Positions 9,095 to 12,919 of a stretch of DNA of 64,000 nucleotides are shown here, piece by piece; position 1 is the stretch's first letter; every line of letters starts with the position of its first letter. The position numbers were made by a program, and so were the translations under genes. The stretch spans positions 1,572-65,571 of the IMG/VR virus record IMGVR_UViG_3300027908_000022, one strand, 5' to 3'. Below the pieces are notes generated by a model. That model did no database searches and was not told the origin of the DNA. It saw only the letters and a list, made by a program, of their open reading frames with translations. This DNA comes from a virus.

Positions 9095-9499
9095 CTGCCG
9101 CTCCAAGCCATACTGGTCCCGCCCTTGCCTCGACTGCCTAGCCGTGCGCCGCCGCCCAATCCGGTCCTATCCCATCCTGCCCCGCCGCTCCGACGAGCCG
9201 CCTTTCCCGTCCTTTCCCTGCCTGCCGTTCCTCTCCCGTCAGACCATTCCGATCCGGTCCGTTCCATGCCTGCCCGTCCGCTCCGACCCATCCGATCCGC
9301 CCGGTCCGCTCCGGTCAATGCCAAGCCTGCCGTGCCTCGCCTGTCCGCTCGCTTCCGATCCTAGCCTGCCGAGCCGACCCAACCGATCCGATCCCTTCCT
9401 GGACTTGCCTGCCGAGCCGGTCCTGTTCCACCAGTACCCGCCTATCCTGCCACGCCCGTCCGATCCAATCCGATCCGCCACGTCCCATCCTATCCTGCC
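9095..9499 (-). ncRNA. Short GG(A/C)NN pentamer array, putative guide-RNA array (VIPR-like), ~9 segments
   Basis: Minus strand reads GGCAGG ATAGG ATGGG ACGTG GCGG ATCGG ATTGG ATCGG ACGGG CGT GGCAGG... GGCAGG separators (CCTGCC on +) at 9494, 9446, 9408, 9365, 9326, 9269, 9221 and 9176. Starts 7 nt after the stop of 9507-10139. Confidence 0.75.
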
Positions 9500-9506
9500 G
9501 AAGCTG

Positions 9507-10139
9507 TTATTCCGCCGCCTTATCTCGCATTGCCGCCCTCGACGCCTCGAACATGTCGATCGCCTCTCGCATCGAGGCCACGAAGTCGACGTAATGCTCC
9601 GGCACGTTGCTCGTGCGACACCAAAATTCGAGCTGCCGGAATGCGCCGGCGACCAGCGCAAACCGCGCCGACGCCACGCGTGACGACAGGTCGAAACGTT
9701 CCCTGGCATCGGAGGCAAGCACGTTCGTGCGGCCGCGTCTCTCCTTGCCGTCCGCATCTCGGAACGTCGGAACATCGTCGACGTTGACCAGCATTGCCTC
9801 GCCGTGCACTCCCGGGACATTGGCGGTCACGACACGAACAGACCGGATGAACTTCCGACAATATTCGAGATGGGTCATCTCGATCGCCCGCTTGTCGGAC
9901 GGCATGTAGTGCCACAGCACGCTCTCGCGATTCGCGCGCATGTACGCGTAAATCTGCTTGGCCGACACCATCGGGACGTCGACCGCATTCAGGCGGGCGA
10001 TCGCCAATAGCTCGGGCGCGATTCGATCTCGGACGTCTTCGGACGTCCACGGAAAACCGTCGGCACTCGTGATGGTGCCGAGGCGAGGAGCGCGCGCCGC
10101 TTTCTTCAGCGGCGCGGCTCCCGGCTTCGACTTCTTCAT
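9507..10139 (-). CDS. Accessory protein coupled to the RAMP-like gene
   Basis: 210 aa, ATGA overlap. SVLWHYM.SDKRAIE..HLEYCRKFIRSVRV resembles the phage family SPLH..FEWDD..AA..YRL.QAR.LIRS. Confidence 0.7.
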   Translation of the reverse strand: MKKSKPGAAPLKKAARAPRLGTITSADGFPWTSEDVRDRIAPELLAIARLNAVDVPMVSAKQIYAYMRANRESVLWHYMPSDKRAIEMTHLEYCRKFIRSVRVVTANVPGVHGEAMLVNVDDVPTFRDADGKERRGRTNVLASDARERFDLSSRVASARFALVAGAFRQLEFWCRTSNVPEHYVDFVASMREAIDMFEASRAAMRDKAAE

Positions 10140-10972
10140 TCGGCCTCAGCCTCGGCCGACTCGTCCGCTTCGTGACGACCAACGGCCCCGTTCACGGTGT
10201 TGACCGCCCCCATCGCCCTGCGCGGCATGTTCGACCGGTCCTTGTCGGCCACGATCGTGGTCGCGGCACGGAGCAGCTCCGGCGGGATCTTGAACATCCT
10301 CTCCGGCAGCGAGCAGGCCTTGACGATCGCGTCGACGCTCTTCTCGGGAAGCGCCTCGACGGTGAAGCTCCCGAGATCGCCGCCCTTCTGCTGCCGGAAC
10401 TCGCAGAGCCCGACTTCCTGGCCCGCCTGTCGCAGCGCGAGCACGATTTTCGCCGCCGGGATCACGTTGTGCGGATACCGAATGACGACGTCAATATACC
10501 AGTCGGTATAAAGGCATCGCGCGCGAACGTCCGGCACGCGATCATTCCACGGTCCGACTTCGACGATGCGCACGTCCATTTCGTGCGCGCCGTGAATCGG
10601 CGCCGTATGGCCCATGATGCGGACCTTCTGTTTGATCTCGCTGGGCTTGACGCTCTTGCCCGTGGCCGACGCGCCGCTGACGAGGCAGGCCTTGATCGTT
10701 CGGCACGGGAGCACGTGCTCGTCCTTGACGTTGCGGTAATGCGACGACTCGTATTCGCTCGTCAGGTCTTTGGGCCGTTGCGGCATGTCGTGGCCGGTCA
10801 TTCGAGAGAGCATCTCGATAACGGCTTTTTCGCTCCATTGATGAACAAGAAGCGCGTCGCCGCGAATTCGGACCGGCATGAGCGCGAGATCGCCGCTCAA
10901 CACCTGAAACGGATCGTGATTCGACTGCTCCGCGACTTCGGGCTCGTTTGCCTTCTTCTTCTTCGCTGCCAT
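10136..10972 (-). CDS. Stand-alone RAMP / Cas7-like RNA-binding protein (Vipr-like effector)
   Basis: 278 aa; GAGGA RBS before ATG 10972. VRIRGDALLVH strand, LPCRTIKACLVSG helix, DVRAR.LYTDW.IDV strand and C-terminal Gly-rich loop ALRQAGQEVGLCEFRQQKGGDLGSFTV. Confidence 0.75.
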   Translation of the reverse strand: MAAKKKKANEPEVAEQSNHDPFQVLSGDLALMPVRIRGDALLVHQWSEKAVIEMLSRMTGHDMPQRPKDLTSEYESSHYRNVKDEHVLPCRTIKACLVSGASATGKSVKPSEIKQKVRIMGHTAPIHGAHEMDVRIVEVGPWNDRVPDVRARCLYTDWYIDVVIRYPHNVIPAAKIVLALRQAGQEVGLCEFRQQKGGDLGSFTVEALPEKSVDAIVKACSLPERMFKIPPELLRAATTIVADKDRSNMPRRAMGAVNTVNGAVGRHEADESAEAEAE

Positions 10973-11041: not shown

Positions 11042-11062
11042 CGGTCAAGTATATTTTGACCG
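11042..11062. promoter_or_regulatory. Palindromic divergent promoter/operator between the RAMP gene and the long array
   Basis: CGGTCAA-GTATATT-TTGACCG, perfect 7-bp arms. Overlapping -10-like hexamers TATATT (+, 11050-55) and TATACT (-, 11053-48). Confidence 0.55.
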
Positions 11063-11068
11063 TCTCAG

Positions 11069-12882
11069 GGCAGGATGGGAACGGCGAGGACGGGTGGCAC
11101 GGAGGGAACGGGGCGCGGCAGCGGCAGGCGAGGACTGGCGAAGAGCGGACGGGACGGGACAGGAGCGTACGGGCACGGCAGGCTTGGCGACGGATGTGGA
11201 GTGGAGCGGGCAGGATGGCGCGGCAGGCTCGGATGGAATGGAGCGGATCGGGCACGGCTCGGCATGGCATGACAGGCTAGGATGGAAGTGGACGGGAATG
11301 GGCGGGCGGTGCGCGGCAGGAGCGGCAAGGACCGGACAGGTCGGCGTGGCAAGGCAGTCATGGCACGACACGGCGACGGGTGGAGCGGAAGCGCACGGCG
11401 GGGCAGTCATGGCGGTGAGGGATCGGGAAGCGACGGGTCATAATGGGCAATGCGCGGCAGCGGCAGGCAGGGAAGGGTCTGATCGGAATGGAGAGGCAAG
11501 ATCGTGGCATGGCAGGCAGGGAACGGCGTGACACGAACCGGCATAGCGTGGCCCGGCAGGCAAGGAAAGGCGCGGACGTGACGGGATCGGAACGGACCGG
11601 CACGGCCCGGCAGGATAGGCAGTGACGGATAGGGGAGCGGTCGGAGGGGAACGGCTCGGCAGGCGCGGACAGGTGACATGTGGACCGGTGGGTACGGTCG
11701 GCTCGGCATGGCAGGCAGGCAGGGACCGGACTGGATGGGACGGGAGCGGAGAGAATGGCTCGGCAGGCATGACTGGGCGGGCGTGGCTTGGCGTGGCTGG
11801 GAAGGGCAGGATAGGCGTGCACCGGATCGGATCGGCTGGGCAGGCAAGGACTGGACTGGAGCGGCTCGGCCCGGCAGGCTTGGATTGGACAGGAGAGTAG
11901 CGGACAGCGAGGCAAGGCAGGATAGGCAGGGCACGGTACGGAAGGGATCGGATCGGCTATGGCTTGGCAGGCTGGGAAGGGATCGGATTGGACAGGGACG
12001 GGATTGGCTCAGCAGGCTAGGCAGTATTGGGGTCCGGACTGGAGCGGCAGATCGTGGCAGGGCAGGCAAGGCAAGGCGAGTAGCGGCACGGCGTGGCCCG
12101 GCATGACAGGCAAGGACGGGACGGGCTCGGCGGTCACATGGCCGGGCAGTCGTGGAGAGCATGGTCGCGGCCGGAGAAGGGCTGGGTGAGCCAGGAGTGG
12201 CTTAGGACGGGATCGGACAGGCGAGGCTTGGCAGGCTGGGAAGAATATGGAACGGCAGATCATTGGAACGGCGTGGCAGGATGGGACCGCATCGGAGTGG
12301 AGTCGACAGGACTGGCAATGGCCGGGCAGGCTAGGCGGCGAGTGGCGCGGATTGGAGCGGCGTTGGCAGGATTGGAGAGGACAGGATGGGTTGGCGGGGC
12401 AAGGCTGGGCAGGATGGGACCGCACAGGACCGGAGTGGACAGGCGTGGCAAGGCTGGGCAGGCTTGGATGGTATCGGCGAAGGATGGGAGGGCGCGGTCA
12501 GGCGTGGCAGGAATGGCTGGGATCGTCACGGACGGGACGGGACGGGCGCGGACGGCAGGCGAGGAATGGTCTGGATAGGACTGGCGCGGAATGACACGGA
12601 GAGGCATGGGGCGGCAGAAGGGGAGAGGAGCGGATGTGACAGGAGCGGAAGGGCAAGTCAGGCTAGGATCGGTCGGACAGGTTGGCGCGGAATGCCAGGC
12701 AGGGATCGGACCGGGGGGATTGGGAAGGACGGGATCGGCTCGGCAGGCTAGGAGAGGAGAGAAGGAGCGGCCAGGCCGGGCAGGCAGGGCACGTCTAGGT
12801 GACACCGGAGTGCACCGGACCGGAAGGGCAGGAATGGCACGGACGGGACCGGACCGGCCGGAGAAGGGCTGGGCAGGCTCGG
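11069..12882 (+). ncRNA. Long GG(A/C)NN pentamer array, putative guide-RNA array (VIPR-like), roughly 35-40 segments
   Basis: Example 11555-11614: GGCAGG CAAGG AAAGG CGCGG ACGTG ACGGG ATCGG AACGG ACCGG CACGG CCC GGCAGG. The 5-nt phase holds between recurrent GGCA(GG) separators; extreme purine strand bias; ends at a hairpin. Confidence 0.8.
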
Positions 12883-12885
12883 ATA

Positions 12886-12919
12886 ACGCAGCGGGCGATA
12901 AGCGATTCGCCCGCTGCGT
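12886..12919. terminator. 13-bp perfect hairpin between the convergent array and terminase gene
   Basis: ACGCAGCGGGCGA-TAAGCGAT-TCGCCCGCTGCGT, directly after the array end and abutting the terL stop. Confidence 0.65.

What the first reader, a model, noticed from the sequence alone, without database searches (positions are those of the whole stretch)
11555..11614. 4-nt GGCA phase-breaker delimits guide units; triplet is GGA/GGC, not GGY
Seen: the 5-nt register is interrupted every ~35-55 nt by a 4-nt GGCA unit (GGCAGG; variants GACAGG and AGCAGG) in both arrays. The third base of the triplet is mostly A or C, rarely T. Inference: GGCA marks a processing site or filament boundary that yields ~7-11-pentamer RNAs (14-22 informative nt). 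The GGM triplet may define a distinct subtype with altered base recognition.
Basis: partly seen in the sequence, partly recalled or inferred. Interest (0 to 1): 0.75.

Follow-up and report, generated by a model that had tools for sequence, protein, structure and literature searches.

The report
Guide-boundary marks in phage VIPR array
The four-base GGCA step is real and marks where one guide ends and the next begins in the guide-RNA arrays of a phage VIPR system, a CRISPR-related gene-silencing device first described in 2026, so this is a good new example of a known layout, not a new kind of system.

Summary
Observation confirmed. GGCAGG is the commonest hexamer in the 1.8-kb array: 39 copies against 6.5 expected, about 80 times the density in the rest of the phage genome. 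It recurs every 30-57 nt (median 44, about 8 pentamers) in both arrays. The pentamer register holds on each side of it and shifts by -1 exactly there. The third base is A 144, C 100, G 33, T 7.

The locus is a phage VIPR system: a Vipr RAMP protein, a partner gene and two vrRNA arrays. The same GGCA(G) step recurs in arrays beside Vipr homologues of 38-84% identity. A 26%-identity homologue has an equivalent GGCT step inside an invariant 19-nt junction. This fits the "staggered arrays" with 1-nt overlaps in fig. S18 of the 2026 VIPR preprint. This scan has already noted the same mark in at least four other genomes.

Three refinements:
- GGCA is not the only register break. About 44 other 4- or 6-nt units lie inside guides.
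- "GGM" depends on position, with GGC next to the junction and GGA inside.
- One guide decodes, across exactly its GGCA-bounded span, to a conserved IS256-type transposase motif.

RNA ends were not testable. Verdict: a new member of a known kind, of moderate interest.

The parts
11069..12886 (+). Long vrRNA array A, divergent from vipr. It holds about 366 GG-anchored units and 49 GGCAG marks, which gives about 35-40 guides.
9095..9499 (-). Short vrRNA array B. It starts 7 nt after the partner gene's stop on the same strand. It holds 11 GGCAG marks spaced 38-57 nt (plus one tandem 4-nt pair) and follows the same grammar as array A.
10136..10972 (-). vipr gene (278 aa), encoding a RAMP / Cas7-like guide-binding protein.
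   Evidence: The clade profile hits only SUSP1 Vipr (PDB 36pp) with E = 9.7e-5. The model has pLDDT 75, and the top Foldseek hits are Csm3/Cmr4-type RAMPs at E = 2e-5. The G-loop motif GLCE[FMK]R is conserved in all homologues. The gene matches phrog_4652.
9507..10139 (-). Partner gene (210 aa) in the position of a vap gene. Its start overlaps the end of vipr.
   Evidence: No hit in Pfam, PADLOC, PHROGs or NCBIfam. No similarity to SUSP1 vap1. A gene of similar length follows vipr in relatives.
11555..11614 (+). The stretch named in the finding: GGCA (11555-11558), ten pentamers (11559-11608), GGCA (11609-11612), GG.
12554..12617 (+). Guide G6: eleven pentamers (12558-12612) between GGCA at 12554 and GGCAG at 12613. 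Read by the 1-nt-skip rule, its NN string spells [DE][IM]LYLA[IM]T[DE][IM]A.
12886..12919 (.). Hairpin with a 13-bp stem that closes array A. It abuts the stop codon of the convergent large-terminase gene.
   Evidence: Read. The simple terminator scan did not call it because it has no T run.

Best explanation
The stretch lies inside the guide-RNA (vrRNA) array of a phage VIPR system of the tail-less, contiguous "staggered" type.

How the published mechanism would apply here:
- Each GG-anchored pentamer would bind one Vipr protomer. Its last two bases (NN) would pair with target DNA, skipping every third target base. This mechanism was shown for type II VIPR in the 2026 preprints and is inferred here.
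- GGCA(G) is the punctuation between successive guides. It is the core of a degenerate 15-19-nt junction of the form GGC-NN GGC-NN GGCA GGM-WN. The junction removes one base from the 5-nt register.
- Successive guides of about 6-11 pentamers (median 8) are therefore out of phase with each other.

Inferred and not shown: the phase slip together with the specific GGCAG sequence ends one Vipr filament and starts the next. The transcript is then cut or trimmed there into separate guides of about 45 nt.

The A/C third base is a positional pattern (GGC beside the junction, GGA inside the guide). It is not one degenerate recognition class.
For: Shown here:
- GGCAGG is strongly enriched. Its spacing is non-random, 30-57 nt with no spacing of 14-31 nt. 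It is locked to the pentamer phase on both sides, and spacings favour 5n+4.
- The same 4-nt GGCA step recurs in arrays next to Vipr homologues:
  - L033 (84% identity) has the same grammar, but its array cannot be aligned to this one by blastn although the gene is 81% identical at the nucleotide level.
  - L010 (38% identity) has GGY pentamers in a clean register, with GGCA every 54-74 nt.
  - L004, L005 and L002 (about 50% identity) have GGCAG every 35-55 nt, with the next GG at +9.
- L014 (26% identity) has GGA-only pentamers cut by an invariant 19-nt junction that contains a 4-nt GGCT step. Variable segments of 5-15 pentamers lie between the junctions.
- Both arrays begin with GGCAGG and end with GGCAG a few units before the array stops, in the manner of repeat-spacer-repeat.
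- All direct-repeat families in the arrays are centred on the junction. A 34-nt tandem duplication equals one GGCA-bounded unit.
- Guide G6 matches a conserved Transposase_mut (IS256-type) motif at 20 of 22 informative bases. The nine inner units match perfectly, across 15 DNA variants that differ at wobble bases. Matching falls to chance beyond both GGCA marks. Three other guides used as controls gave only incoherent hits.
- The protein is a Vipr.

From the literature: bioRxiv 10.64898/2026.04.26.720920 describes staggered arrays whose vrRNAs come from 1-nt overlapping positions (fig. S18 legend).
Against: - No RNA data exist. Neither transcription, nor processing, nor the ends of any RNA were observed. 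The preprint states that only the ribozyme-type and single-vrRNA layouts were confirmed by small-RNA sequencing, not the staggered one.
- In this window about 25 other 4-nt and 19 6-nt units lie inside the GGCA-bounded segments. Only 16 of 42 spacings of 30 nt or more are exactly 5n+4. A phase slip alone therefore cannot be what defines a boundary, or else many guides here are decayed.
- The transposase match is a single guide. It has mismatches in the first and last unit, sits in low-GC metagenome contigs unlike this 65%-GC phage, and no other guide hits those genes. Its significance rests on my rough estimate (about 0.01). The search pattern selected for the nine central units.
- I could not see fig. 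S18 itself, so the equation with staggered arrays rests on its legend.
Confidence: 0.75

Rival explanations
1. GGCAG marks a filament boundary or nucleation point on a long RNA that is never cut. The array would act as a string of separate Vipr filaments on one transcript.
For: - There is no hairpin, ribozyme or tail between guides. The region folds worse than its shuffles (z = +1.84), and Rfam finds nothing. No obvious structure-specific processing signal exists.
- The junction leaves no unprotected linker.
Against: - The preprint's legend speaks of individual processed vrRNAs at such boundaries.
- Other VIPR types yield discrete RNAs of about 100 nt.
- A 1.8-kb RNA carrying about 40 filaments would be an unusual effector.
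Confidence: 0.15
2. GGCA is only the commonest of many slippage or indel irregularities in a degenerate pentamer tract and has no function of its own.
For: About 44 other 4-nt or 6-nt units occur in array A. Fifty-six of the 297 pentamers lack the GG start, so the tract is noisy.
Against: - One specific tetramer accounts for 58% of the 4-nt units.
- Its spacing is regular, with no spacing of 14-31 nt.
- Its flanks are conserved.
- It is conserved across Vipr homologues of 38-84% identity whose arrays share no alignable sequence.
Confidence: 0.04
3. The G-rich tracts are not guide arrays. They could be a protein-titrating sponge RNA (CsrA- or TRAP-like), a decoy for rival Vipr proteins, or a G-quadruplex-forming DNA element.
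For: This was my first guess, made before the protein was identified. The GG motifs are dense and no RNA family matches.
Against: - The adjacent protein is a Vipr homologue.
- The grammar of fixed GG, a constrained third base and two free bases is that of vrRNAs.
- Array sequences turn over completely between close relatives while the grammar is kept.
- One guide decodes to a conserved gene motif in codon register.
Confidence: 0.04

Closest known systems
VIPR systems with "staggered" vrRNA arrays (bioRxiv 10.64898/2026.04.26.720920, fig. S18 legend)
   Same: - Vipr gene plus a partner gene in a phage.
- Contiguous pentamer arrays with no long leader or tail between guides.
- Neighbouring guides offset by one base, so the end of one marks the start of the next. 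This is what a 4-nt step in a 5-nt register amounts to.
   Different: - I could read only the legend, not the figure. I do not know whether the published example uses GGCA, or which of the seven types it belongs to.
- Here the third base is A/C rather than Y, and it changes with position in the guide.
- This array is noisy, with extra register breaks inside guides.
Type II VIPR of Escherichia phage SUSP1 and a Pseudomonas fulva prophage (same preprint; structures in 10.64898/2026.04.26.720927; PDB 36pp)
   Same: - Homologous Vipr protein: profile E = 9.7e-5, G-loop acidic-aromatic-Arg motif and thumb Arg aligned.
- Arrays both upstream and downstream of the operon.
- GG-anchored pentamers with free NN.
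   Different: - SUSP1 vrRNAs are separate units of about 100 nt, each with its own conserved leader and a structured 3' tail. Here there are none.
- SUSP1 uses GGT/GGY and a pocket that excludes purines. Here the interior units are GGA.
- The partner gene is unrelated to vap1.
CRISPR arrays with class 1 Cas7 filaments
   Same: - The RAMP fold of the guide-binding protein.
- An array of variable guides separated by a recurring mark. The number of marks is one more than the number of guides, and guide content turns over fast between relatives.
   Different: - The "repeat" is a 4-5-nt core in a degenerate junction of about 15-19 nt, not a 23-50-nt repeat.
- There is no cas1/cas2 and no Cas6-type hairpin.
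- The guide is read discontinuously, two bases in every five.
Non-canonical VIPR repeat units (NNNGG, YNNNG, NNNNG in 10.64898/2026.04.26.720920; GAC/NN, CAC/NN, WGT/NN, TGH/NN in 10.64898/2026.10.21.760802)
   Same: Departure from GGY while keeping the 5-nt unit and an adjacent Vipr-like protein.
   Different: - GGA/GGC with a position-dependent choice is not among the patterns named in the text I could read.
- GGA-only arrays (L012, L014, L015) and GGC-only arrays were seen here in IMG/VR contigs.

Membership tests
VIPR system | Vipr protein: a minimal RAMP (RRM core, G-loop, thumb) homologous to characterised Vipr | tested here: met
   - The profile of 12 clade members hits only SUSP1 Vipr in the PDB (E = 9.7e-5).
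- The AlphaFold model has pLDDT 75, and Foldseek's top hits are Csm3/Cmr4 RAMPs (E = 2e-5).
- R152 aligns with thumb R138, and E191-F192-R193 align with G-loop D177-W178-R179.
VIPR system | Flanking non-coding arrays of 5-nt units with a fixed GG, a constrained third base and hypervariable NN | tested here: met
   GGNNNGG occurs 231 times in array A and 53 times in array B. Positions 4 and 5 use all four bases, and position 3 is 85-89% A or C.
VIPR system | Third base is a pyrimidine (the canonical GGY) | tested here: not met
   A 144, C 100, G 33, T 7. The preprint allows "a related consensus" and NNNGG units, so this does not exclude membership.
VIPR system | Accessory vap gene next to vipr | tested here: inconclusive
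   A 210-aa gene overlaps the end of vipr, and a gene of similar length sits in the same position in relatives. It has no similarity to SUSP1 vap1 and no family hit.
VIPR system | Encoded by a phage or other mobile element | tested here: met
   The contig is 104 kb and carries a large terminase next to the array (phrog_2). An identical locus lies on a 100.7-kb contig from another sample.
VIPR system | vrRNAs are expressed and bound by Vipr | not testable with these tools
   No RNA or binding data are available.
VIPR system | Guides match natural targets by the 1-nt-skip rule, with skipped bases at codon wobble positions | tested here: inconclusive
   - One guide (12558-12612) matches a conserved Transposase_mut motif in codon register at 20 of 22 bases.
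- Three full-length exact patterns found nothing in viral contigs, and the one also tried in metagenome contigs found nothing.
- Three other guides gave chance-like hits.
Staggered vrRNA array (fig. S18) | Neighbouring guides abut with a one-base overlap (a -1 register shift), with no tail, leader or ribozyme between them | tested here: met
   The logo shows GG at -5 and at +4, +9 and +14 around GGCA. No structure or RNA family lies between guides. The same holds in relatives.
Staggered vrRNA array (fig. S18) | Processed RNA ends coincide with the boundaries | not testable with these tools
   This needs small-RNA sequencing. The preprint does not report it for this layout.
Type II VIPR (SUSP1-like) | Separate vrRNAs of about 100 nt, each with a conserved structured 3' tail; vap1 partner | tested here: not met
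   The SUSP1 intergenic regions show long conserved leaders and tails between repeat tracts, and none exist here. The partner gene is unrelated to vap1.
CRISPR-Cas | Direct repeats of 23-50 nt with spacers, plus cas1/cas2 adaptation genes | tested here: not met
   No such repeats were found. PADLOC and Pfam find no Cas family in the six neighbouring ORFs tested.

The most novel reading that the evidence does not exclude
The array may carry a second layer of code beyond the NN guide bases.
- The choice of third base (GGC in the two units before and the one after the mark, GGA inside) together with GGCAG would set where Vipr filaments start and stop.
- The junction-proximal units would then act as a handle rather than as guide. 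The one decoded guide fits this: only its first and last units mismatch, both as possible G:T wobbles.
- That guide is aimed at a conserved IS256-type transposase motif, which would extend VIPR targets from rival phages and satellites to transposons.
Probability: 0.2. Interest if true: 0.6.

Novelty: new member of a known kind. Interest (0 to 1): 0.4.

Why it matters
VIPR is a months-old discovery. Its staggered array layout is the one variant that the discoverers did not confirm by RNA sequencing.

This locus and its relatives give a clear, testable rule for that layout. The core mark is GGCWG, it makes a -1 register step, and it is conserved from 84% down to 26% protein identity.

They also show three further things:
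- The third base of the unit can be a purine.
- In this lineage the third base depends on position within the guide.
- Guide boundaries can be checked from natural targets.

Knowing where guides start and stop is needed to predict VIPR targets and to reprogram such arrays.

Distant homologues in cultured Gordonia and Mycobacterium phages may offer tractable systems for experiments.

Tried and rejected
- **Period-5 power.** A sliding Fourier measure found almost nothing, because the register shifts too often. GG-spacing counts and anchored logos worked instead.
- **RNA and protein family searches.** Rfam gave no match. Pfam, PADLOC and NCBIfam gave nothing for the two genes.
- **First guess.** A CsrA- or TRAP-like sponge RNA was dropped once the protein proved to be a Vipr.
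- **Promoter and terminator scan.** The sigma-70 scan found no promoter-like site, and the terminator scan missed the closing hairpin because it lacks a T run.
- **Strain variation.** The other assemblies that carry the identical Vipr are 100% identical across the locus, so they show no guide gain or loss.
- **Local target scan.** All units tested against the phage genome and fetched loci gave chance-level results (51 hits of 13-14 of 14 bases, about 33 expected).
- **Exact full-length guide patterns.** There were 0 hits in viral contigs for three guides and 0 in metagenome contigs for one. Three hits in unrelated gut MAGs are about what chance gives.
- **Interior patterns of guides at 11559, 11127 and 12412.** Hits had unrelated contexts, and their extension scores were as expected by chance.
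- **Other guides against the IS256-type genes.** Nothing rose above shuffled controls.
- **Host inference.** The terminase has no match in cultured phages. Relatives cannot be drawn for a virus record. Genome contigs held no Vipr relative.
- **Pocket residues against third base.** GGA-only loci carry Ser-Gly at the positions aligned to SUSP1 E71/M72. Within this Vipr family the residues do not track base usage cleanly, so I make no claim.
- **GGC enrichment beside the junction.** It does not hold in L004, L005 or L002, so it is specific to this lineage.
- **Complex prediction.** Not used, because it cannot model RNA.
Full report
**What is there.**
- The window holds two G-rich non-coding tracts. 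Array A lies at about 11069-12886 on the + strand. Array B lies at about 9095-9499 on the - strand.
- They flank two overlapping minus-strand genes, 10136-10972 (278 aa) and 9507-10139 (210 aa).
- In array A the distance from one GG to the next is 5 nt 149 times, 4 nt 73 times and 6 nt 39 times. Control DNA from the same window gives a flat distribution.
- A dynamic-programming parse gives 297 pentamers, 59 four-base units and 19 six-base units.
- The stretch named in the finding reads GGCA, ten pentamers, GGCA, GG, exactly as described.

**Is the GGCA step more than chance?**
- GGCAGG is by far the commonest hexamer of array A, with 39 copies. A first-order Markov null gives 6.5 +/- 2.6. The density is 21 per kb against 0.27 per kb of strand in the rest of the 104-kb genome.
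- Of 46 spacings between GGCAGG sites in the two arrays, 31 fall in 30-56 nt and none in 14-31 nt. The rest are tandem copies, one of 57 nt, or roughly 2-4 times the unit spacing (90-169 nt). Random placement gives 11 +/- 2.9. Shuffling the order of the parsed units gives P < 2e-4.
- With the shorter core GGCAG most long gaps fill in. There are then 49 marks in A and 11 in B, with a median spacing of 44 nt, or eight pentamers.
- A logo anchored on the mark shows GG at -15, -10 and -5 and at +4, +9, +14 and +19. The 5-nt register holds on both sides and slips by one base exactly at GGCA.
- Spacings are congruent to 4 mod 5 in 25 of 58 cases against 20% expected (P = 5e-5).

**Two corrections to the observation.**
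- GGCA accounts for only about 34 of the 59 four-base units. About 25 other four-base and 19 six-base units lie inside the segments.
- GACAGG is mostly the in-phase pentamer GGACA followed by GG, not a variant of the mark. AGCAGG at 12011 is a true variant.

**Third base.**
- In GGNNNGG the third base is A 110, C 87, G 28, T 6 in array A, and A 144, C 100, G 33, T 7 in both arrays together. T is 19-25% at the two free positions. "Mostly A or C, rarely T" is correct.
- It is not a uniform degenerate position, however. In the two units before and the one after the mark, C dominates (51 C to 20 A in array A). Elsewhere A dominates (90 A to 29 C). Fisher P is 1.8e-10 in array A, 5e-4 in array B and 2.7e-6 in the closest relative's array.
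- The mark is therefore the core of a longer degenerate junction of roughly GGC-NN GGC-NN GGCA GGM-WN.

**What the locus is.**
- VIPR systems were described in 2026 preprints. A minimal RAMP protein (Vipr) polymerises along vrRNAs made of GGY-NN pentamers. The NN bases pair with DNA while every third target base is skipped. The systems are mostly phage-borne and silence rival mobile elements (10.64898/2026.04.26.720920 and 10.64898/2026.04.26.720927).
- A profile of the 278-aa protein and its 11 relatives hits a single PDB sequence, SUSP1 Vipr, at E = 9.7e-5.
- The thumb arginine and the G-loop acidic-aromatic-arginine triplet align with the residues that hold G1 and G2 in the SUSP1 structure.
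- A model (pLDDT 75) finds Csm3/Cmr4-type RAMPs first in the PDB.
- The contig is a phage genome.
- The array layout is not that of the characterised type II systems. SUSP1 vrRNAs are separate units with long conserved leaders and structured tails. Here the guides abut directly, the RNA shows no structure (z = +1.84) and no Rfam family matches. The partner gene is unrelated to vap1.

**Comparative evidence for the boundary reading.** Arrays beside Vipr homologues show the same mark.
- L033 (84% identity) has GGA/GGC pentamers cut by GGCA into runs of 7-10 units. The array cannot be aligned to this one, although the gene is 81% identical in DNA.
- L010 (38% identity) has clean GGC/GGT pentamers with GGCA every 54-74 nt.
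- L004, L005 and L002 (about 50% identity) have GGCAG every 35-55 nt on both sides of the operon, with the next GG nine bases on.
- Pooled over these loci, 58 of 122 spacings are 5n+4 (P = 8e-12).
- L014 (26% identity) makes the logic plain. Its GGA-only pentamers come in variable runs of 5-15, separated 20 times by an invariant 19-nt junction that contains a four-base GGCT step.
- The junction core is therefore GGC-W-G, with a -1 slip, across very different Vipr lineages.
- Both arrays here begin with GGCAGG and end with GGCAG a few units before the array stops.
- Every direct-repeat family found in the arrays is centred on the junction.
- A 34-nt tandem duplication at 11805-11873 equals one bounded unit.
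- The preprint's fig. S18 legend describes "staggered" arrays in which vrRNAs come from 1-nt overlapping positions, so that the end of one marks the start of the next. That is what a four-base step in a five-base register amounts to.
- The preprint says that only the ribozyme and single-vrRNA layouts were confirmed by small-RNA sequencing.
- This scan has noted the same mark in at least four other genomes.

**A test from natural targets.**
- Exact full-length patterns built by the 1-nt-skip rule found nothing: three guides were tried in viral contigs and one of them in metagenome contigs. In the species genomes one pattern gave only chance-level hits.
- I then used only the inner units of the guide at 12558-12612. 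Three of the 8 viral hits and about 95 of 120 metagenome hits fell in one place, the motif K[MI]LYLAMTDIT near the C-terminus of Transposase_mut (IS256-type) proteins. They were in codon register, across 15 DNA variants that differ at the skipped wobble bases.
- Within the eleven-unit guide the match is 20 of 22. The nine inner units match perfectly. The first and last units each have one mismatch, and in both the guide has G where the protospacer has A, which could be a G:T wobble.
- Beyond both GGCA marks, matching drops to chance whether or not the mark is counted as a unit.
- Inner patterns from three other guides gave only unrelated contexts, with chance-like extension scores. They serve as rough controls.

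**Caveats on the target test.**
- It is one guide.
- The hit contigs are of lower GC than this phage.
- No other guide hits these genes.
- The nine central units were the search criterion.
- My significance estimate of about 0.01 is a rough one.
- I treat this as a supportive lead, not as proof.

**Base recognition.**
- In SUSP1 the third base sits in a narrow pocket that excludes purines (E71, M72, C173, T175, R179).
- In a MAFFT alignment of 25 Vipr sequences the G-loop is nearly invariant whatever the third base. The helix-1 positions that align with E71/M72 vary. They are R-T here and in L033, R-I in the rest of this family, Ser-Gly in the four GGA loci, and E-C in GGT loci.
- Within this family base usage differs without a clean residue correlate: A/C here, C/T in L010, T/C/A in L004 and L005.
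- The idea of a distinct recognition subtype remains a hypothesis. Non-GGY units are already reported.

**Mechanism and odds.**
- Most likely (0.75): GGCA(G) is the guide boundary of a staggered VIPR array.
- What is shown here: the enrichment, the spacing, the phase lock, the conservation across homologues, and one target whose complementarity ends at the marks.
- What is inferred: Vipr filaments end and start at the mark, and the transcript is cut or trimmed there.
- The many other register breaks inside guides argue that the specific sequence, and not the slip alone, carries the signal, or that many guides here are decayed. This remains unexplained.
- The main rival (0.15) is a boundary without cleavage. 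A functionless irregularity and a non-guide role are each about 0.04.

**Verdict.** The layout is already described in outline, so this is a new member of a known kind. It adds useful detail on the junction, the position-dependent third base and a candidate transposon target.

Noticed in passing
window 12279-12318 and 12412-12451: Two guides are 80% identical over 54 nt, and both start right after a GGCA. Five of their seven differences fall on the NN positions, as expected if paralogous guides track variants of one target.
   Followed up: partly
window 11058-11086, 11500-11528, 12050-12078: The first 29 nt of array A, just after the palindrome next to the vipr start, recur inside the array at 72-79% identity. 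A 68-nt block at 11499-11566 resembles the block at 12049-12116 at 74%. These are either segmental duplications that include the array's start, or internal start sites.
   Followed up: no
L014:2758-4052 (IMG/VR contig 3300033148_004297): This 1.3-kb array has almost only GGA pentamers (200 A, 0 C, 0 T), cut 20 times by an invariant 19-nt junction with a 4-nt GGCT step. One guide cassette with an internal 4+6-nt pair occurs three times. L015 and L012 are similar.
   Followed up: partly
Alignment of Vipr homologues, positions aligned to SUSP1 E71/M72: All four GGA-type loci (L009, L012, L014, L015) carry Ser-Gly at these positions. GGT loci carry Glu-Cys, as in SUSP1-like pockets. Small residues might open the pocket to purines. 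L008 (Gly-Ala, GGY) is a counter-example.
   Followed up: partly
L004:3535-5337: A 600-aa gene with an AcrVA2-like domain (PF26125) lies directly downstream of the VIPR array of a 50%-identity relative.
   Followed up: no
L002:500-4843: A 1447-aa gene combines portal, NUDIX and Zeta-toxin/AAA_33 domains and sits divergently next to vipr in a 75-kb phage contig. In that locus one array lies between vipr and its partner gene and a second lies after the partner.
   Followed up: no
Phage records NC_031249 (Gordonia phage UmaThurman, 32798-33343), MW534375 (ODay), and Mycobacterium phages Pippy, Brocalys and others: Cultured actinobacteriophages encode proteins 26-28% identical to this Vipr, annotated as hypothetical. 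They could be laboratory models. Their arrays were not examined.
   Followed up: no
window 11042-11062: An inverted repeat GGTCAA...TTGACC around TATAT sits between the vipr start and the first GGCAGG of array A. The sigma-70 scan calls no promoter here.
   Followed up: no
window 9239-9820, 11407-12162 and other ORFs inside the arrays; L004:2773-3242; L033:112-582: Long spurious ORFs run through the arrays on both strands. Gene callers have annotated some of them as proteins in public contigs.
   Followed up: no
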